Source: Proteobacteria bacterium UBA6503 (lineage in GTDB: Bacteria; Pseudomonadota; Alphaproteobacteria; UBA1280; UBA6503). Taken from it: a stretch of 64,000 nt of DNA. The stretch spans positions 270,001-334,000 of the forward strand of contig DJLZ01000001.1 of assembly GCA_002436405.1 (NCBI GenBank), given 5' to 3'. The stretch's first letter is position 1. Every line of letters starts with the position of its first letter. The notes under the pieces are model-generated. The model worked only from the letters and a program-made list of their open reading frames with translations, made no database searches and was not told where the DNA came from. A program made the translations under genes and the position numbers. Of the stretch, positions 10,541 to 57,995 are shown piece after piece.

Positions 10541-10627
10541 TGGTGCCGGTGGAGGGAATCGAACCCACACATTGTTACCAATACGAGATTTTGAGTCTCG
10601 CGCGTCTACCAGTTCCGCCACACCGGC
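10541..10627 (-). tRNA. tRNA-Leu (anticodon CAA), 87 nt with long variable arm and encoded CCA
   Basis: Reverse complement GCCGGTGTGGCGGAACTGGTAGACGCGCGAGACTCAAAATCTCGT...GGGTTCGATTCCCTCCACCGGCACCA. Anticodon loop CTCAAAA. A weak hairpin with a T6 tract lies just downstream on the minus strand. Confidence 0.85.
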
Positions 10628-35508: not shown

Positions 35509-36234
35509 ATGGATGATTTTTTCTCAACATTAGTAGGGGCTGTCCTAGCTTTTTATTTTGGTTTAGGGCTCTACAAACGCCAAAAAAAGCAAGAAAATAT
35601 ATCATATTTGCACCATTGCATCGCTGCCCTAAGTCAGCTCAACAACCACGCCTATGGCTTCAAAAAACAAGTGGTCATGGATAGAAAAAACGAGGCCATA
35701 TCTGTCTTCCTTATTCTCAATGGGCACATCCCGCTAACAGCACCTACTAAGCTCTCAATATCAAATAATTCTAACTACATCTTTTCAGGAACATTCAAAC
35801 ATGGACTCTCTATAGAAAGACTAAGTTTCATCGCGGAACATTCACCCAATATTCTAATATTAATTGGCTCATTGATTAACTCGGTTGAAAAACTAAATCT
35901 AATGGTAGATGAGATAAACTCAGAAATACTAAGTCTTATGGATAGAAATGAGCCACTTCCGTTGGAAAGAGTGAAATTCATTCTCCAACGAGGGTTACTA
36001 CTAAGTGAACAAGTTGATGAGCTCATTTCTTTCAACGAAAAGACCTTAAAAGTCCTTATTTCTTTTGGATATAAGCGATATCGTAAAAACATGTCTATTA
36101 GCAAATCTGATATCATTGAAGAATACGAAGAGTTCCGACCTGCACCCCTTAAGGGTTGGGGTGATGATTCTGGATGGATCAGTACTAAACGACCCGTCTG
36201 GCACAAGCTTTATAAATGGTTCATGACTCAATAA
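35509..36234 (+). CDS. Low-GC orphan protein with N-terminal TM helix, adjacent to tRNA-Ala
   Basis: 241 aa. DNA about 36-38% GC against a 47-50% background. One N-terminal TM, then a helical cytoplasmic domain. No recognisable family. Confidence 0.45.
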   Translation: MDDFFSTLVGAVLAFYFGLGLYKRQKKQENISYLHHCIAALSQLNNHAYGFKKQVVMDRKNEAISVFLILNGHIPLTAPTKLSISNNSNYIFSGTFKHGLSIERLSFIAEHSPNILILIGSLINSVEKLNLMVDEINSEILSLMDRNEPLPLERVKFILQRGLLLSEQVDELISFNEKTLKVLISFGYKRYRKNMSISKSDIIEEYEEFRPAPLKGWGDDSGWISTKRPVWHKLYKWFMTQ

Positions 36235-36367
36235 CCATAGCCTCTACAGCGCGCACTTGGTTTACGCCACGCTCGCGGTTGGGCAATATCTTCACGAGGT
36301 GGCACAATTCACGTAGCCGACTGCCACAAACAAAAAAACGCCCCTAGTCGGGGCGTTTTTGAATTTT

Positions 36368-36444
36368 TGGTGGAGCTAAGCGGGATCGAACCGCTGACCT
36401 CATCGCTGCCAGCGATGCGCTCTCCCAGCTGAGCTATAGCCCCA
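36368..36444 (-). tRNA. tRNA-Ala (anticodon GGC), G3:U70 identity pair, encoded CCA
   Basis: Reverse complement GGGGCTATAGCTCAGCTGGGAGAGGCGCATCGCTGGCAGCGATGAGGTCAGCGGTTCGATCCCGCTTAGCTCCACCA. Anticodon loop CTGGCAG. Confidence 0.85.
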
Positions 36445-36701
36445 CACCATGTAGGAAAGTAAATTCTTTTTACTCAAGCCCTGTTTAAATTGCAACTGTT
36501 TTTTACATTCCCCTTCATACGGGGCGTTTAATTAAGGGCCCCACCCCCGCTTGAAAAGGTAAAAAACTTGACTATCTAGTATCTGCTATGACTATATTAA
36601 GGCCTAGTTCTTAATATCTTCCTTCTTACATTTTCTCTTTTTTCTCTTACTGAAGAGGCCGAAATTCTTCGTCCTCCCTCCAAACTTTAAGGAACTCAAT
36701 T

Positions 36702-38165
36702 ATGACGACCCTTTCTGGTGATATGAATGTGCTCGACGTTCGCGTGGGCAAAGTTGCAACCGCCGCTACGCTGCAAATCGTCCTCGCGACGACTGCCGGC
36801 AAGCTGCTGAGCAACGGTGCCGACTACATGGGCTCGGAAGCGAAAAACGTGACCAAGTTCATCAAGGAATCGCGCCCGTCGGTTGGCGATGTTGTGCATC
36901 TGCCGATGCCCGGCCGCGCCAAGGTGTGTGCCATCATCGTTGCGGAAACGCAGACCGAAGCCACGCTCGAAGCCCTTGGTGAGAAAATCACCAAGCTCGC
37001 CAACAGCAAGGACTATACCGCGGTAACGCTGGTGATCGAAACCTTCGGCCTCAACGCCGATGTGGTCGCCGCCAAGCTGACCTACGGTATGCAGTTTGCA
37101 ACCAACGCCCTTTCGATGAAGAGCGATGCGAAGCAGGACGTGCTGAAGAAGGTCTACCTTTATGGTGAAGAGCTGACGTCGAACAGCGCTGCGGCTACCG
37201 CAGCTATCGAAGACGCCACGCACAACGCCATGGGCAGCATCCTGATGCGTACGCTGATTCAGCTTCCGCCGAACGTACTGGGCACCCGCCAGCTGCTTGC
37301 AGTTGCGCAGGGCCTGAAGAAGTACAACAAGGATGTGAAGGTCAGCGTCAAGGTGGTCAAGGACGGCATGAACTTCGGCGCGATGGCCGCGGTTGGTCGT
37401 GTTTCGAACCAGGATTCGCTCCTGATCGAAATCCGCTACGAAGGTGATGCCAATGCACCGCTGACGGCACTCGTCGGCAAGGGCCTGGTGTTCGATACCG
37501 GTGGTATCAACCTGAAGTCCAACGGTGGTACTGGCATGAAGGGCGACATGGGCGGCAGCGCCATGGTTCTGGGAACGATGTTCTCGGCCATTCTCCGCAA
37601 GGAGAAAGTCAACCTCATCGGTGTGATTGGTGCTGTGTGTAACGACATCGGCCCCGATGCGTATCGCCCGGACGAGGTTCTGACGGCCCGCAACGGCACG
37701 ACGATCGAAGTCACGAACACGGATGCCGAAGGGCGTCTGGTGCTGGCCGACTGCCTCAGCTACACTGAGGAAAAGTACAGCCCTGTGCGTATGTTCAGCT
37801 TTGCGACCCTAACGGGCGCAGCTGTGGTGGCCCATGGTCGCCGTGCGCCTGTGTTCTCGGACGATGATACGTTCGCCGCTGACCTTGTCGACTCGGCCAA
37901 TGCCGCAGGCGATATGGTGGCGCACGTCATCATGGACGACTACCTGAAGCCGAGCCTCAACAGCTCGATTGCGGATACGCGCAATACCTCGACGGGCCGT
38001 ATGTGTGGTCATACCACGGCAGCGATCTTTTTGAACAAGTTCGTCGCCAAGACCCCGTACATGCACGTCGACATTGCTGGTGCGTCTGACATCAACGGCC
38101 CCGGTGGTGGTGCCTTTGGTGTTCCGATGATGCTTCGCTATCTGACGACCTACGCTCGTGGGTAA
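36702..38165 (+). CDS. M17-family leucyl aminopeptidase-like protein, cassette C, strongly GC3-rich (foreign composition)
   Basis: 487 aa. VGKGLVFDTGGINLK and the NTDAEGRLVLAD signature of cytosol aminopeptidases. GC clearly above surrounding genes. CT-rich leader and own promoter-like element. Confidence 0.8.
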   Translation: MTTLSGDMNVLDVRVGKVATAATLQIVLATTAGKLLSNGADYMGSEAKNVTKFIKESRPSVGDVVHLPMPGRAKVCAIIVAETQTEATLEALGEKITKLANSKDYTAVTLVIETFGLNADVVAAKLTYGMQFATNALSMKSDAKQDVLKKVYLYGEELTSNSAAATAAIEDATHNAMGSILMRTLIQLPPNVLGTRQLLAVAQGLKKYNKDVKVSVKVVKDGMNFGAMAAVGRVSNQDSLLIEIRYEGDANAPLTALVGKGLVFDTGGINLKSNGGTGMKGDMGGSAMVLGTMFSAILRKEKVNLIGVIGAVCNDIGPDAYRPDEVLTARNGTTIEVTNTDAEGRLVLADCLSYTEEKYSPVRMFSFATLTGAAVVAHGRRAPVFSDDDTFAADLVDSANAAGDMVAHVIMDDYLKPSLNSSIADTRNTSTGRMCGHTTAAIFLNKFVAKTPYMHVDIAGASDINGPGGGAFGVPMMLRYLTTYARG

Positions 38166-54310: not shown

Positions 54311-54598
54311 ATGCCTAAATTTTTAATTGTTTTCTACATGCTACTGGCCACAACGCCGCTGCTTTTGCAGGGGTGCTCGCCTGCTTTTGAATGGGACGAT
54401 GCCCGCACTTGGGGCCCTGAAAGCAACCACGCCCGCTATGCGCGTGAAATCCGCGAGTCATGCGAAGAAGCTGCCCACACCGACCAAAGCAAACGTATTG
54501 TTGCCGTAAACGGTGTTGATGAAAACTACTACCACACCGAGTGCATCCCCTACACCTCAGCGCCGCCACAATACATGAACCGTATGGAAGGCCGCTAA
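54311..54598 (+). CDS. Small lipoprotein
   Basis: 95 aa. Lipobox LLLQGCS. Confidence 0.4.
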   Translation: MPKFLIVFYMLLATTPLLLQGCSPAFEWDDARTWGPESNHARYAREIRESCEEAAHTDQSKRIVAVNGVDENYYHTECIPYTSAPPQYMNRMEGR

Positions 54599-54599
54599 G

Positions 54600-54911
54600 A
54601 TGAAAGGTAATCTTCAAGAAACCGTTGCACATTACAACGATTCATTCGCTACAGCTATTTTGGTGTTCGTGGAAGACACCACCATTGGCCTGCTAGTTTT
54701 CTTGTTCTGGATTTTCATCCTCATGCGTGCTTCACGCCCGCTGCGCACCACAAGCAAAGGCACCACACGCGATAACTCACTGTGGGTGATTGCAACTGTG
54801 GTTTCATTAGCATTGCTCTGCACCATCATGACGATGGGCATCTACTTAGATATTAAGTTTGCGATTTTTGGTGCCTTTAAAGGCTCGATTATTCAGGCAA
54901 TATTTTCTTAA
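54600..54911 (+). CDS. Small 2-3 TM membrane protein
   Basis: 103 aa. Start abuts the previous stop. Confidence 0.4.
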   Translation: MKGNLQETVAHYNDSFATAILVFVEDTTIGLLVFLFWIFILMRASRPLRTTSKGTTRDNSLWVIATVVSLALLCTIMTMGIYLDIKFAIFGAFKGSIIQAIFS

Positions 54912-54919
54912 CAAAAGAC

Positions 54920-55534
54920 TTAGAAGCTTGCCTGCTGGCGAACCTGCTCACCCTCATACCACTGGATCATCTTCGCACCGGCTTGTTTGCCGCAAGCCTG
55001 CACAACCTCGCGTGCCGTAATGTAGTCACGGGCAGGGTCAAAAGCTGTGTTTGAAGCATCAGCCAAAGTGGCTTTCATCACCAAGTGCATTTGAGCACAC
55101 ACTTTGTTGTGGCCTGTCGCTGCACCGCTTAAGGCCATCGCCTCGCCCGCTGGGCCGCTGGCTGTTTTAGCTGCTTTTTCAGCTGCAGCAGGGTCTGCCA
55201 AGAAGTGCAAACCAGGAATAGCCGCAAGGCGCTTAATGGTTTCGGCAAATTCGTCGTTTGATTGCATGCCTTCGGCAGGCTTCAGAATATTATGCGTGGT
55301 CACAGGGCCAGTCGCCGCCTTTTCGGCCTGGTTCAGCGTAAGGCGCAAAATGCCCTCGGTGCGGTTAGAATCTTCAACGGTTTGCAAAACCATATTGTTG
55401 GCTTCATCTAACGTAAAAATAACATGACATGGTTCAGTCTCTGGGTTGCAGGCAAGTGCTGACTCAACAGCTACAAAACTTAAAATAATCCCCCAAAAAA
55501 TGGCCATCCCTAGCCTGAAATGTGTGCTCATCAA
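54920..55534 (-). CDS. Secreted protein of unknown function
   Basis: 204 aa. Signal peptide with ALAC. Ala-rich. Confidence 0.4.
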   Translation of the reverse strand: MMSTHFRLGMAIFWGIILSFVAVESALACNPETEPCHVIFTLDEANNMVLQTVEDSNRTEGILRLTLNQAEKAATGPVTTHNILKPAEGMQSNDEFAETIKRLAAIPGLHFLADPAAAEKAAKTASGPAGEAMALSGAATGHNKVCAQMHLVMKATLADASNTAFDPARDYITAREVVQACGKQAGAKMIQWYEGEQVRQQASF

Positions 55535-55628
55535 CCTATTTCTTTAATTTTGTTTTTATATTGATATACATATAAGCATTCTTAAAATGCTTTTAAACCC
55601 CTGTCATCAAAGGTTTTTTGAGCCTTTA

Positions 55629-56192
55629 CTATGGGCTTGGTGCAATCACAACGCTCAAGGTATCGGTATGTAGCCCGTTACTGCTAGAGCCTGATACATC
55701 TGCATTGGTTACACGCACACGAATACGAGCATTATCAGCGCCCAATGTCACACATGAGTCATTGGTTGTGGCGGCATTCGCACGTGTTGTAATCGGCACA
55801 CCTTCAGTGGCAGCAACATAGTTAGCGCCAGTGCCAGAGTCATCATACTCAACCGAATAGGTCACAACGCTGGTGCCATTTTCCATCTGAAACTGGCCAA
55901 CGCCATTTGCGCTTGAAAGGGTTACTTGGTAGCCGCCAAGGCCATTATCGTAAACACAAAGAGGGTCAAACCCTGTCAGCGGCGAGGTTGCGGCGTCAAA
56001 AGTACCGAGTGGAATATCGTTAATATTGTTCACGCGCATTTCGCGCTGAACGGTAATGATAATGTTTGAGCGCCCCGTTGAGGTTGGGCCCAATGTACCA
56101 TCAGTTGCGGCATGCGCAACATAACCAGCCCCAACCCCTAGTGCAGAAGTTGCGACAAAAAAGACACTGAATAAACCTGTACGGAATGCCAC
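55629..56192 (-). CDS. Secreted SCPU-domain (spore coat protein U / Csu-type pilin-like) protein, long form
   Basis: 187 aa. Signal peptide. GTLGPTSTG...NIIITV...DIPLGTFD N-terminal strand, conserved Cys pair, C-terminal SVVIAPSP. Paralog of 56789-57346. Confidence 0.6.
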   Translation of the reverse strand: MAFRTGLFSVFFVATSALGVGAGYVAHAATDGTLGPTSTGRSNIIITVQREMRVNNINDIPLGTFDAATSPLTGFDPLCVYDNGLGGYQVTLSSANGVGQFQMENGTSVVTYSVEYDDSGTGANYVAATEGVPITTRANAATTNDSCVTLGADNARIRVRVTNADVSGSSSNGLHTDTLSVVIAPSP

Positions 56193-56282
56193 TTTTTATT
56201 TTCCTGTGTTACCATAAGCATTAAGCCAATACACTGACTGATGAAACTATATCACAGCTAATTACAACTAAGAACGGACCTT

Positions 56283-56756
56283 ATGATGCGCGCCCTACCT
56301 TTTACATTAGCTATGTTGTTTATGTGTGCCACTGTTGGTTTTGCCCTGACACCCTCAGCCTACGCCCAAAACGTGATTATTACTGGGATGGACGATTATA
56401 ACTTCGGTACCCACGTTGCAGGAAGCGGAACAAAGCAGCAAACCCAAGCTTTTTGCGTTGGTAAATCAGCTGGTAACAAAAACTGGAATGGTACCATCAA
56501 CGGCAGTGGTGCAGGTGGTGCCTTCACCATTACAGATGGGGCCGGCAACACCATACCCTTTACAGTGCGCCGCCTACCAAACCCAACATATACAGCAGGT
56601 GTTTCAAATAGTGCCAACCAAGCTGATAATAACGCCCCTCTAGATTGCAACGGCACAGACAACCAAGACCTTAGGATTGAAATGACGGGGGCCAACCTTG
56701 ATGGCGTACCAGCTGGTACCTACACAGGTTATATTGATGTCACTGTTAGCCCATAA
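56283..56756 (+). CDS. Secreted SCPU-like protein, short form
   Basis: 157 aa. Signal ...AYAQ. GAGGAFTITDGAGNTIPFTV, Cys pair, PAGTYTGYIDVTVSP C-terminus. Paralog of 57424-57888. Confidence 0.6.
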   Translation: MMRALPFTLAMLFMCATVGFALTPSAYAQNVIITGMDDYNFGTHVAGSGTKQQTQAFCVGKSAGNKNWNGTINGSGAGGAFTITDGAGNTIPFTVRRLPNPTYTAGVSNSANQADNNAPLDCNGTDNQDLRIEMTGANLDGVPAGTYTGYIDVTVSP

Positions 56757-56788
56757 TACTTTTTAAATTGGCTTAGATAAAATACTGA

Positions 56789-57346
56789 CTATGGGTCTGG
56801 CGCAACAGTAATAGAAAGAACATCGGAATAACTTCCAGCAGGGGCTCCTGTTGCGGCACTATTCAAAACTGTTACTCGTACCATCGCATTATCAGCAGCA
56901 CCTGTAGGGGTGCAGTTCCCTGTATTAGGTGAAGGGTTTGTATTTCCACTAATTGGCACACCCGCCATAACCGGCACAAGGCCTGACCCCGTGTTGGTGT
57001 CATCAAACGCAACCTCATAAGCAATGGTGTTTCCAGCTGAATCCAATTCAAACGCACCCGGTGTATTTGTTCCGTTAAACGTAATATTATAGGTGTAACC
57101 ACTTGCCGCACCGCTATCATGCACACAGAATAAATCCTGAGCAGACTGGGCCGGCTGAGAGAAATCAAATGTTCCCAAGTTAATATCAGTCAGCCGAAAC
57201 ACGCGAACACGCCGGAAAATTTCGACTTCCAAGTTAATCATAAATGTTGAGGTGGCACCAAGAGTGCCTTGAACAACAGCTCCCGCATATGGCGCAGCCA
57301 TGTTCCCTAATAAAGCTGAGAAAAGTAGTATAAATGCCTTCATCAC
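56789..57346 (-). CDS. Secreted SCPU-domain protein, long form (paralog)
   Basis: 185 aa. GTLGATSTFMINLEV...DINLGTFDF, PGAFELDSAGNTIAYEVAFDD, C-terminal SITVAPDP. Confidence 0.6.
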   Translation of the reverse strand: MMKAFILLFSALLGNMAAPYAGAVVQGTLGATSTFMINLEVEIFRRVRVFRLTDINLGTFDFSQPAQSAQDLFCVHDSGAASGYTYNITFNGTNTPGAFELDSAGNTIAYEVAFDDTNTGSGLVPVMAGVPISGNTNPSPNTGNCTPTGAADNAMVRVTVLNSAATGAPAGSYSDVLSITVAPDP

Positions 57347-57423
57347 ACATAAAAATATGGCTTAAACACACTGCACCGCAACAAAATAATGACTTTAAAT
57401 AACAAACAAGCTATTTTTTAAGA

Positions 57424-57888
57424 ATGCGATTAAAGATATTTACAACACTATTCCTTTTTCTTGTAGCAAGCGCTCCGCTTGACGTATATGCGCAAAATAT
57501 TCAGGCCTTCAACGCCGAAGATATCGACTATGGCAGCTGGATTCCTGGTGATGGTAACTTACAAAACAATGACTTTTTTTGTGTTTATAAAGATGCAGGC
57601 AACCGCCGATGGGACGTTGTTGCCAACGGCGATGGGCCAGGTGGTGCATTTGAACTTAACGATGGTATGGGCAACACCCTAACCATTAACCGTGTACGTG
57701 TTAAAGCCGTTGACCTTACCCCTGGCGTTACCGCAACAAACCTTGGCGGGGCTGATAATTCGGCACCTGCCGACTGCGGCGGGTCCGACAACCAGCGCCT
57801 TCGCGTTCGCCTACTTCAATCAGATATGGTTAACGTTCCTCCTGGCACATATACAGGTACCCTTACCTTTACTGTGAGTCCAAACTAA
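57424..57888 (+). CDS. Secreted SCPU-like protein, short form (paralog)
   Basis: 154 aa. GPGGAFELNDGMGNTLTINRV, PPGTYTGTLTFTVSPN. Confidence 0.6.
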   Translation: MRLKIFTTLFLFLVASAPLDVYAQNIQAFNAEDIDYGSWIPGDGNLQNNDFFCVYKDAGNRRWDVVANGDGPGGAFELNDGMGNTLTINRVRVKAVDLTPGVTATNLGGADNSAPADCGGSDNQRLRVRLLQSDMVNVPPGTYTGTLTFTVSPN

Positions 57889-57995
57889 AAAAACCCGAAA
57901 AACGCCCCTTTTTTGGCTTTACAGCCTTGATTTTTAGGGGTAATCGGTCACAATACTTTCCTAAAGTTTAATTTATATAAAAATAGGTGTTTTAA

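What the first reader, a model, noticed from the sequence alone, without database searches (positions are those of the whole stretch)
55629..57888. Four SCPU/Csu-pilin-like secreted paralogs arranged as two tandem divergent pairs, without chaperone or usher
Four signal-peptide proteins share the spore-coat-protein-U/Csu pilin signature: a conserved Cys pair, GxGGAF[ET][IL]xDGxGNT[IL] cores, and a C-terminal TYTG..[TV][TV][SA]P motif. Two long forms (185-187 aa, minus strand) retain the N-terminal GTLG-T/S-rich strand typical of donor-strand pilins. Two short forms (154-157 aa, plus strand) lack it. The order is long(-), short(+), long(-), short(+), so a two-gene divergent module has been duplicated. 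Archaic chaperone-usher (Csu-type) operons are normally unidirectional and include a PapD-like chaperone and an usher, and none is present within at least 5 kb. Possible explanations are a trans-encoded assembly system, a non-pilus role for SCPU proteins, or a capped two-component fibre (a long polymerising subunit plus a short terminator or tip lacking the donor strand).
Basis: partly seen in the sequence, partly recalled or inferred. Interest (0 to 1): 0.55.

Follow-up and report, generated by a model that had tools for sequence, protein, structure and literature searches.

The report
Orphan chaperone-usher-type pilin gene cassette
Four genes in a marine alphaproteobacterium encode subunits of hair-like adhesive fibres from a large unannotated pilin family, but the machinery that normally assembles such fibres is missing nearby and a small unknown secreted protein always accompanies them instead.

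Summary
Four signal-peptide paralogs lie at 55629-57888 as long(-), short(+), long(-), short(+). An AlphaFold model of one long form matches only chaperone-usher (CU) pilins in PDB: CfaE, CupE1, CsuE and CsuA/B.

They are not Pfam SCPU members (best E=0.26). They belong to a large Pfam-uncovered family (1,933 clusters) with three forms:
- long forms with an N-terminal donor-strand-like extension;
- short forms without it;
- tandem two-domain forms without it.

In all five distant relatives with enough flanking DNA, the genes sit beside a CfaA-like chaperone and/or a TcfC/CooC_C-type usher (both in four, the usher alone in truncated L030). That is the alternate pathway, not Csu.

In the window's clade (marine MAGs labelled Magnetococcales), no chaperone or usher occurs in 192 kb searched. 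Instead a clade-specific exported 204-aa protein (X, 54920-55534) accompanies every long/short pair where that position is on the contig, and it is not PapD-like.

All five genes are under purifying selection. The pilin genes form a sharply bounded, strain-variable island (55580-57895).

Most likely these are two serotype-like sets of major plus tip subunits, assembled by machinery encoded elsewhere. X-dependent, usher-independent assembly is the more novel alternative and is not excluded.

The parts
54920..55534 (-). X204: an exported 204-aa protein (203 aa from the ATG at 55531) with 4 invariant Cys. It is a clade-specific partner of the long/short pilin genes.
   Evidence: X is present next to the long gene in every clade locus whose contig reaches that position. 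In L004 it overlaps the long gene by 8 nt and the trio sits in a different neighbourhood. It has no Pfam, NCBIfam or PADLOC hit. Only 7 homologs were found among 5.8 billion proteins. The AF2 model (pLDDT 69.6) shows an N-terminal helix, a 3-stranded sheet and a helical domain, not a PapD-like fold, and it has no Foldseek match. dN/dS is 0.03-0.04. X is absent from all CU-containing relatives.
55629..56192 (-). L1: long pilin-like subunit (187 aa) with a signal peptide, a GTLGPTST N-terminal extension and a pilin core. It starts at GTG with an AGGAAA Shine-Dalgarno motif.
   Evidence: Its ortholog in MAG OFTM141 is 64% identical. dN/dS is 0.044 against L001.
56193..56282 (.). Divergent 90-bp spacer between L1 and S1. 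The L1 5' leader is conserved in L026.
   Evidence: The promoter scan was not above chance.
56283..56756 (+). S1: short pilin-like subunit (157 aa) with a signal peptide and no N-terminal extension.
   Evidence: It is 55% identical to the OFTM141 short form and 100% identical in L001.
56789..57346 (-). L2: long pilin-like subunit (184-185 aa). This is the protein that was modelled.
   Evidence: The AF2 core has pLDDT above 83. Foldseek hits include CfaE (5e-6), CupE1 (8e-5), CsuE (3e-4) and CsuA/B (5e-4, TM 0.63). The weak PF05229 match has E=0.26.
57347..57423 (.). Divergent 77-bp spacer between L2 and S2, containing the conserved motif GCAACAAAATAATGACTT (57377-57396).
   Evidence: The motif is shared with the equivalent spacers of L006 and L014. 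Its function is untested.
57424..57888 (+). S2: short pilin-like subunit (154 aa) with no N-terminal extension.
   Evidence: dN/dS is 0.04.
55580..57895 (.). Strain-variable island holding exactly the four pilin-like genes.
   Evidence: Flanks are 96.5-100% identical to L006. Inside the island, L1 and S1 are absent from L006 and the L2/S2 region is 32-85% identical in 60-nt windows, with sharp boundaries. dS is 2.5-3.6 inside against 0.09-0.27 outside.

Best explanation
The four genes encode two sets of subunits for a thin, non-classical chaperone-usher-type pilus.

Each long protein is the polymerising major subunit. After Sec export, its N-terminal extension (A-[TV]-[DQ]-G-T-L-G-x-T-S-T followed by an alternating hydrophobic strand) would insert into the open Ig-like groove of the preceding subunit by donor-strand exchange.

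Each short protein has the same groove-bearing core but no extension. It can accept a strand but cannot donate one, which places it as the first-incorporated distal tip or initiator subunit. That is the role played by the two-domain, extension-less members (CfaE/CsuE-like) in other operons of the family.

The two long/short pairs are old, serotype-like alternatives held in a recombination-prone island, as expected for a surface-exposed antigen.

The chaperone and usher needed for periplasmic capping and outer-membrane export are not in the locus. The most likely case is that they are encoded elsewhere in the genome. X204, the conserved exported partner, would then act as a clade-specific accessory factor, for example a periplasmic holdase or adaptor, an anchor, or a regulator.

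Shown: paralogy, pilin fold, family membership, the family-wide long/short/two-domain architecture, CU adjacency in distant relatives, absence of CU locally, X linkage, purifying selection and island boundaries.

Inferred: donor-strand exchange, the tip role of the short form, surface exposure, trans-encoded machinery, and any role for X.
For: - **Fold:** the top ~40 PDB Foldseek hits are exclusively CU pilins, from a model with a confident core.
- **Family size:** 1,933 representative clusters at E<=1e-3 and 883 at E<=1e-10.
- **Architectures:** of the best 148 relatives, 69 are two-domain proteins and none of those has the extension motif. Single-domain members occur with the motif (median 180 aa) and without it (median 164 aa).
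- **CU adjacency in relatives:** all five informative distant loci (L015, L028, L029, L030, L033) have a chaperone and/or usher adjacent: both in L015, L028, L029 and L033, the usher alone in L030, whose contig ends there. Pfam on three chaperones (L015, L028, L029) and the two full-length ushers gave PapD_N at E=1e-6 to 2e-3, with only the L015 chaperone above Pfam's cutoff, and TcfC at 2e-14 and CooC_C at 8e-10 in the ushers. The L029 chaperone matches CfaA at 3e-4. L029 and L030 have long, long, short plus usher and no two-domain adhesin, so the short form fills the tip slot there.
- **Extension conservation:** the extension is the most conserved part of the long forms, with G27 T28 L29 G30 T32 S33 T34 invariant.
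- **Selection:** dN/dS is 0-0.14 for all four pilin genes and X.
- **Variable island:** it has sharp boundaries and saturated dS.
- **Literature:** archaic and alternate systems form one structurally related non-classical group (PMC4654587).
Against: - No chaperone or usher was found in 64 kb of window, 10 kb beyond each relevant edge, or any of 12 clade loci (192 kb in total).
- The distribution is strictly complementary: X only where CU is absent, CU only where X is absent. This is what functional replacement would look like, not trans-encoded machinery.
- The rest of the genome (contigs up to 1.12 Mb exist) could not be searched.
- The extension has low pLDDT in the monomer model, and no multimer model could be run, so donor-strand exchange is untested.
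- The Cys pair is placed differently from what I recall for Csu/SCPU pilins.
Confidence: 0.5

Rival explanations
1. X-dependent, usher-independent assembly. In this clade the chaperone-usher pair has been replaced by X204. X would cap or hold the subunits in the periplasm, for example by lending one of its N-terminal beta-strands (VIFTL, ILRLTL) to the pilin groove. The fibre would then polymerise by donor-strand exchange without a dedicated usher, either exported by another route or built as a periplasmic or cell-envelope structure.
For: - CU and X have complementary distributions. All five informative out-of-clade loci have CU and none has X. No clade locus has CU, and every one whose contig reaches that position has X.
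- The trio S-L-X stays together when the neighbourhood changes, and L and X overlap by 8 nt in L004.
- X is exported, under strong purifying selection and restricted to this clade.
- Chaperone-free donor-strand polymerisation exists in other systems, the archaeal cannulae (PMC12518558). EcpA needed a W11A mutation to abrogate self-polymerisation (PMC4654587).
Against: - A ~175-aa, largely helical protein cannot plausibly form an outer-membrane export pore.
- X does not co-vary with the pilin alleles: it is 97.5% identical where L2 is 78% identical.
- No structural similarity to any chaperone was found.
- No precedent is known to me for usher-free export of CU-type pilins in a diderm.
- The X model has only moderate confidence.
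Confidence: 0.2
2. Non-fibre role. The proteins have kept the pilin-like Ig fold but act as monomeric or dimeric exported proteins, for example periplasmic or outer-surface binding proteins, or a long-short heterodimer in which the long form's extension complements the short form. No polymerisation machinery would be needed.
For: - There is no local assembly machinery.
- The long:short ratio is 1:1 in the minimal module, which fits a heterodimer.
- Divergent transcription is unlike typical CU operons.
Against: - The donor-strand-like extension is the most conserved segment of the long forms and is identical in type to that of relatives in real CU operons.
- A deep allelic cassette structure is typical of abundant surface antigens.
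- L006 has one long and two short genes, so the ratio is not strictly 1:1.
Confidence: 0.15
3. Ordinary Csu-like (archaic, SCPU) operon fragment whose chaperone and usher lie just outside the stretch inspected.
For: - A weak PF05229 match for L2 (E=0.26).
- CsuE and CsuA/B are among the Foldseek hits.
Against: - 55 kb upstream and 6 kb downstream in the window contain only housekeeping genes. So do the 10 kb beyond the window start and the 10 kb downstream of the short gene in syntenic L006.
- The same CU-less synteny holds in genomes whose ThrS is only 81% identical.
- The relatives' machinery is CooC/TcfC/CfaA-type, not Csu-type.
Confidence: 0.03
4. Decaying remnants of a lost pilus operon, that is, non-functional genes.
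For: The loss of adjacent chaperone and usher genes relative to other family members.
Against: - All ORFs are intact in many independent assemblies.
- dN/dS is 0-0.14.
- The module is retained across genomes whose thrS is only about 72-73% identical at the DNA level.
Confidence: 0.02

Closest known systems
Alternate (alpha, class 5) chaperone-usher pili: CFA/I (CfaABCE), CS1 (CooBACD), Tcf, Cbl
   Same: - The best structural hit is CfaE in its CfaA complex, and CfaB also matches.
- Distant family members sit beside ushers with TcfC and CooC_C domains and beside CfaA-like chaperones.
- The layout is a major subunit with an N-terminal donor strand plus an extension-less tip or initiator subunit.
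   Different: - No sequence match to the CS1 or CblD pilin Pfam families.
- The tip subunit here is a single domain rather than adhesin plus pilin domains.
- Genes are divergently transcribed.
- There is no chaperone or usher in the locus, and an unrelated exported protein X is present instead.
Archaic (sigma) chaperone-usher pili with SCPU-domain subunits: Acinetobacter Csu, Pseudomonas CupE, Myxococcus spore coat protein U
   Same: - CupE1, CsuE and CsuA/B are among the top Foldseek hits.
- PF05229 is the only pilin Pfam family that any relative touches (6 of 89, best E=1e-4).
- The CsuE pilin domain is the recurring weak PDB sequence hit.
- The '..nfGt..' and 'G.Y.d.l.v.V' motifs are similar.
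   Different: - The proteins fall below the PF05229 threshold.
- The Cys pair links the B-strand Cys to a C-terminal loop Cys, rather than the A-B pair I recall for Csu pilins (from memory, not tested).
- The relatives' ushers are CooC/TcfC-type, not PapC-type.
- Csu and CupE operons are unidirectional and contain the chaperone and usher.
Strain-variable major-pilin loci (for example fimA alleles or type IV pilin islands)
   Same: A sharply bounded island of highly divergent pilin alleles sits between nearly identical flanks, with low dN/dS within alleles.
   Different: The comparison rests on my general knowledge of those systems. Here two allele sets coexist in tandem, and copy number differs between strains (L-S-L-S against L-S-S).
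Chaperone-free donor-strand fibres (archaeal cannulae CanA; Bacillus TasA)
   Same: They are a possible analogy if no chaperone or usher exists in this genome. Their subunits polymerise by donor-strand complementation without a PapD-like chaperone (PMC12518558).
   Different: No sequence or fold relationship was tested. Those organisms lack an outer membrane barrier of the proteobacterial kind.

Membership tests
Pfam PF05229 SCPU / archaic Csu-type pilins | Significant match to the SCPU domain model (gathering score 22.4 bits) | tested here: not met
   L2 scores 12.1 bits (E=0.26). L1, S1 and S2 have no hit at E<=1. Only 6 of 89 relatives reach E<=0.01, with a best of 1e-4.
Pfam PF05229 SCPU / archaic Csu-type pilins | Operon with a Csu-type chaperone and a PapC-like usher | tested here: not met
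   None was found in the window or the clade loci. Relatives' ushers carry TcfC and CooC_C domains with only weak PF00577.
Chaperone-usher pilin superfamily (incomplete Ig-like pilin fold) | Pilin fold similar to solved CU subunits | tested here: met
   Foldseek hits: CfaE 5e-6, CupE1 8e-5, CsuE 3e-4, CsuA/B 5e-4 (TM 0.63 by target), then FimG, PapH, PapA and CfaB. Ranks 1-41 are all CU pilins. The model core has pLDDT above 83.
Chaperone-usher pilin superfamily (incomplete Ig-like pilin fold) | N-terminal donor strand that complements the neighbouring subunit's groove | tested here: inconclusive
   Long forms have a conserved extension with an alternating hydrophobic pattern directly after the signal peptide, shared with relatives in CU operons. 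It has pLDDT below 50 in the monomer model, and no multimer prediction was possible. Short forms lack it.
Chaperone-usher pilin superfamily (incomplete Ig-like pilin fold) | Cognate periplasmic chaperone and outer-membrane usher in the same genome | not testable with these tools
   They are absent from 64 kb of window plus flanks and from 192 kb of clade loci. The remaining genome (contigs up to 1.12 Mb) could not be scanned.
Alternate (CS1/CFA-I type) CU pili | Subunit matches the CS1 or CblD pilin families in Pfam | tested here: not met
   No such hit for the four proteins at E<=1, nor for 89 relatives at E<=0.01.
Alternate (CS1/CFA-I type) CU pili | Usher with TcfC/CooC_C domains and a CfaA-like chaperone next to the subunit genes | tested here: not met
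   Met only in distant relatives: L029 and L030 ushers have TcfC at 2e-14 and CooC_C at 8e-10, and the L029 chaperone matches CfaA at 3e-4. L015, L028 and L033 also have CU genes. It is not met in the window or its clade.
Alternate (CS1/CFA-I type) CU pili | Extension-less tip or initiator subunit alongside an extension-bearing major subunit | tested here: met
   Short forms lack the extension and long forms have it. The pattern holds family-wide, including the two-domain forms. The functional role itself is inferred.
PapD-like chaperones (candidate identity for X204) | Two Ig-like beta-sandwich domains with a PF00345/PF02753 match | tested here: not met
   X204 has no Pfam hit. The AF2 model is mostly helical with a 3-stranded sheet. 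There is no Foldseek match (best E=0.84) and no hit with the chaperone HMM.

The most novel reading that the evidence does not exclude
In this marine alphaproteobacterial clade the chaperone-usher pair of a non-classical pilus system has been functionally replaced by one small exported protein of novel fold (X204). Donor-strand-exchanged fibres, or a long-short capped complex, would then be built in a diderm without a PapD-like chaperone or a dedicated usher.
Probability: 0.17. Interest if true: 0.8.

Novelty: new variant of a known kind. Interest (0 to 1): 0.5.

Why it matters
- **An unannotated pilin family.** The work defines a large family of non-classical CU pilins (about 1,900 clusters at 50% identity) that Pfam and NCBIfam do not recognise and that public records call 'hypothetical protein'. 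Surface-adhesin repertoires of environmental bacteria are therefore under-counted.
- **A single-domain tip subunit.** The family has a recurrent single-domain subunit without a donor strand. It is a simple model for how a CU fibre is initiated or capped.
- **A natural experiment on CU dependence.** The CU-less module with its exclusive partner X bears on whether CU-type subunits strictly need a chaperone and usher. If the genomes truly lack both, this would be a new assembly route.
- **A candidate surface antigen.** The sharply bounded allelic island marks these proteins as likely surface antigens under population-level diversifying pressure, presumably from phages or grazers, in an abundant uncultured marine lineage.

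Tried and rejected
- **NCBIfam and PADLOC** scans of the pilin-like proteins and X gave nothing usable.
- **Sequence-profile searches of PDB** with 4-, 15- and 89-sequence alignments found nothing significant. There was only nanobody or lectin noise and CsuE at E about 1.
- **The GTDB genome scan** with short-form peptide patterns found no relative.
- **The sigma-70 promoter and terminator scan** of the locus was not above the shuffled expectation, so nothing is claimed about promoters.
- **The repeat search** found no inverted repeats flanking the spacers that would suggest an invertible phase switch.
- **Foldseek of the X model** gave no match.
- **The usher from L029** has no sequence match in PDB.
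- **'Recent tandem duplication of a two-gene module'** was considered and rejected. The pairs are 35-41% identical and each has closer orthologs in other genomes.
- **'Accelerated evolution by positive selection'** was rejected as the cause of the island's divergence. dN/dS stays at 0.04-0.06 while dS is saturated, so the alleles are old and were exchanged by recombination.
- **'X is only a syntenic bystander'** was rejected on the L004 evidence.
Full report

| Gene | Coordinates | Strand | Length |
|---|---|---|---|
| L1 | 55629-56192 | - | 187 aa |
| S1 | 56283-56756 | + | 157 aa |
| L2 | 56789-57346 | - | 185 aa (184 aa from the ATG at 57343) |
| S2 | 57424-57888 | + | 154 aa |

- L1 and L2 are 35% identical (E=9e-33).
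- S1 and S2 are 41% identical (E=2e-38).
- Long versus short is 23-31% identical (E=1e-3 to 3e-11).
- Each protein begins with a typical Sec signal (AHA|A, AGA|V, AYA|Q, VYA|Q), read from the sequence.
- The alignments show the invariant Cys pair, the GGAF..DG.GNT core and the G.Y...TV.P C-terminus.
- The long forms carry about 21 extra residues right after the signal peptide: GTLGxTST followed by an alternating hydrophobic strand. The short forms lack this stretch.

**Is it SCPU?** Not by the family's own test.
- Pfam gives no hit for L1, S1 or S2. L2 scores only 12.1 bits (E=0.26) against PF05229, whose cutoff is 22.4.
- NCBIfam gives nothing relevant.
- Sequence-profile searches of PDB find nothing significant. 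The CsuE pilin domain recurs at E about 1.

**Fold.** An AlphaFold2 model of L2, built on a 15-sequence alignment, has mean pLDDT 77. Its core (residues ~45-185) is mostly above 83, and its N-terminal 40 residues are of low confidence. Foldseek against PDB returns only chaperone-usher pilus subunits through rank 41:
- CfaE, in complex with CfaA (5e-6)
- CupE1 (8e-5)
- CsuE (3e-4)
- CsuA/B (5e-4, TM 0.63 normalised by target)
- then CfaB, FimG, PapH, PapA, PapK and FimI

The CU-pilin fold is therefore supported, with the two non-classical classes (alternate and archaic) on top. Those two classes are known to be structurally related (PMC4654587).

**The family.**
- Word-indexed searches found only 4 and 7 close homologs, none with a Pfam domain.
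- An exhaustive HMMER profile search of 1.84 billion representatives found 1,933 clusters at E<=1e-3 and 883 at E<=1e-10.
- Of 89 of these scanned with Pfam, only 6 touch PF05229 weakly (best E=1e-4). None hits any other fimbrial-subunit family; one has a lone weak ComP_DUS match (E=0.008).
- This is therefore a large pilin family that current domain libraries do not cover. NCBI labels the window's five genes 'hypothetical protein' (MBA44279-83).
- Among the best 148 relatives, 69 are tandem two-domain proteins of 300-350 aa, and none carries the N-terminal extension motif.
- The 79 single-domain relatives split into those with the motif A-[TVSN]-[DQ]-G-[TS]-[LV]-G-x-[TS]-S-T directly after the signal peptide (median 180 aa) and those without it (median 164 aa).
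- The long/short dichotomy is therefore a family-wide feature, not a peculiarity of this locus.

**What relatives sit next to.**

| Locus | Gene content |
|---|---|
| L015 | long, two-domain, chaperone (PapD_N 1e-6), start of an usher |
| L028 | fragment, short, chaperone (PapD_N 4e-4), start of an usher |
| L029, L030 | long, long, short, then a convergent 850-aa usher; followed in L029 by a 242-aa chaperone, while L030's contig ends within the usher |
| L033 | two family members, usher and chaperone |

- The L029 and L030 ushers have TcfC at 2e-14, CooC_C at 8e-10 and only a weak PF00577 match.
- The L029 chaperone's best PDB sequence matches are CfaA (3e-4).
- Every out-of-clade locus with enough flanking DNA (5 of 5) therefore has CU machinery. 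That machinery is of the alternate (CS1/CFA-I/Tcf) type, not the Csu type.
- In L029 and L030 the short form is the only extension-less subunit, so it occupies the slot that the two-domain protein fills in L015. This is the basis for reading the short form as the tip or initiator subunit (inference).

**The window's clade.**
- The organism is an uncultured marine alphaproteobacterium. Tara Oceans assemblies carry it, and NCBI labels the MAG 'Magnetococcales bacterium'.
- The nearest GTDB genome is MAG OFTM141, with ThrS 81% identical. The next nearest is only 55% identical.
- Across the clade the pilin genes lie between a GT4 glycosyltransferase with two small membrane or lipoprotein genes on one side, and thrS-infC-motAB on the other.
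- Pfam on all large ORFs and chaperone-sized candidates of the window found only housekeeping functions.
- HMMs built from the relatives' chaperones and ushers found nothing at E<=1 in any ORF of at least 50 aa in the window or 12 clade loci, 192 kb in total.
- The 10 kb beyond the window start and the 10 kb downstream of the short gene in L006 are also negative.
- This removes the refutation condition of a standard pair immediately outside the window.

**The missed component.**
- The 204-aa ORF at 54920-55534(-), called X204 here, lies directly downstream of the long gene in every clade locus whose contig reaches that position.
- The genes first taken for second long forms in L012, L014 and L004 are in fact X homologs.
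- The conserved unit is therefore short(+) <-> long(-)-X(-).
- In L004 the trio sits beside a different neighbour, the homolog of window gene 63319-63834, and the long and X ORFs overlap by 8 nt. X therefore travels with the pilin genes.
- X has a signal or anchor helix, four invariant Cys and no family match. It has only 7 homologs, all from this clade's type of locus.
- Its AF2 model (pLDDT 69.6) shows a small 3-stranded sheet and a helical domain, with no Foldseek match. It is not a PapD-like chaperone.
- X is absent from all CU-containing relatives. X and CU thus show a complementary distribution.

**Selection and population structure.**
- Against the close strain L001, dN/dS is 0.04 (L1), 0 (S1), 0.14 (L2), 0.04 (S2) and 0.03 (X). 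The genes are functional.
- Against L006, whose flanks are 96.5-96.8% identical in DNA, L1 and S1 have no counterpart. L006 has long, short, short instead.
- L2 and S2 have dS of 3.6 and 2.5, against 0.09-0.27 for the flanking genes. dN/dS is still 0.04-0.06.
- Sixty-nucleotide windows put the boundaries at about 55580, just upstream of the X start codon, and about 57895, at the S2 stop.
- OFTM141 carries L1/S1-type genes (64% and 55% identical), while L006 carries L2/S2-type genes (78% and 77% over the full-length alignments; 84% for S2 in the 135-aa BLAST local alignment).
- The window therefore combines two old cassette lineages in tandem. It is not a recent duplication, and the island behaves like a recombining surface-antigen locus.

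**Mechanism.** The best-supported reading is that the long proteins are polymerising major subunits that use the conserved N-terminal extension as a donor strand. The short proteins are extension-less distal tip or initiator subunits. The two pairs are alternative serotype-like sets.

How they are assembled is unresolved.
- I rate trans-encoded non-classical chaperone-usher machinery, with X as a clade-specific accessory, as most likely. The overall statement has confidence 0.5. The pilin identity itself is about 0.85.
- X-dependent, usher-independent assembly is at about 0.2.
- A non-fibre role, for example a long-short complex, is at about 0.15.
- An ordinary Csu operon fragment and gene decay are effectively excluded.

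**Limits.**
- No multimer prediction could be run.
- The rest of the genome could not be scanned.
- The promoter scan was uninformative.
- The statement about where the Csu/SCPU disulfide lies rests on my memory of those structures, not on a test here.

Noticed in passing
window 62737-63240 (+): A 167-aa membrane protein just downstream of motA/motB. Its L006 ortholog hits PF09685 (MamF_MmsF). NCBI labels the MAG 'Magnetococcales bacterium'. Whether this reflects magnetosome biology or only the broad family was not examined. A long antisense ORF (62671-63282, -) overlapping it looks spurious.
   Followed up: no
window 57377-57396; also the L006 and L014 long/short spacers: An 18-nt motif, GCAACAAAATAATGACTT, is conserved in the divergent spacer of L2/S2-type modules across genomes whose thrS is only ~72% identical in DNA. 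Degenerate copies lie at 56777-56792 and 57561-57576. It may be a promoter or an operator.
   Followed up: partly
window 54311-54598 (+) and 54600-54911 (+): This is a conserved pair. The 95-aa protein has a lipoprotein-like LLQGC signal. The 103-aa multi-pass membrane protein has a weak DUF1345 match (E=0.006). Both are 100% identical in protein to L006 despite dS of 0.09-0.19. In L012, L014 and L017 a carbohydrate-kinase gene (PF01256) is inserted between them.
   Followed up: no
L006 8890-10465 compared with window 55629-57888: Copy number and order of the pilin genes differ between strains that share ~96.5% flank identity. L006 and its group have long(-), short(+), short(+), while the window and L001 have long, short, long, short.
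   Followed up: yes
P0012-P0159; L015 2419-3354: Nearly half (69 of 148) of the best family representatives are tandem two-domain proteins in which both halves match the pilin profile. None has the N-terminal extension. They are probably CsuE/CfaE-like tip adhesins built by internal duplication.
   Followed up: partly
window 36001-38000: Local GC rises to 0.536 against ~0.48 elsewhere. A tRNA lies at 36371-36443(-), and a second tRNA at 10544-10627(-). The 487-aa ORF at 36702-38165 was not characterised.
   Followed up: no
L029 5627-8278 (-): In the distant CU-containing relative, a PAS-rich histidine kinase (883 aa) and a response-regulator-like ORF directly follow the chaperone gene. L015 has an OmpR-type response regulator upstream of its pilin genes. 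Two-component control of this pilus family is possible.
   Followed up: no
L001 (GCA_035092525.1, contig JAYKCN010012339.1): A near-identical copy of the whole five-gene locus (96% DNA identity) lies on a 4.9-kb contig of an NCBI assembly with more than 12,000 contigs. This suggests the bacterium is present in, or contaminates, a larger and possibly host-associated or community assembly.
   Followed up: no
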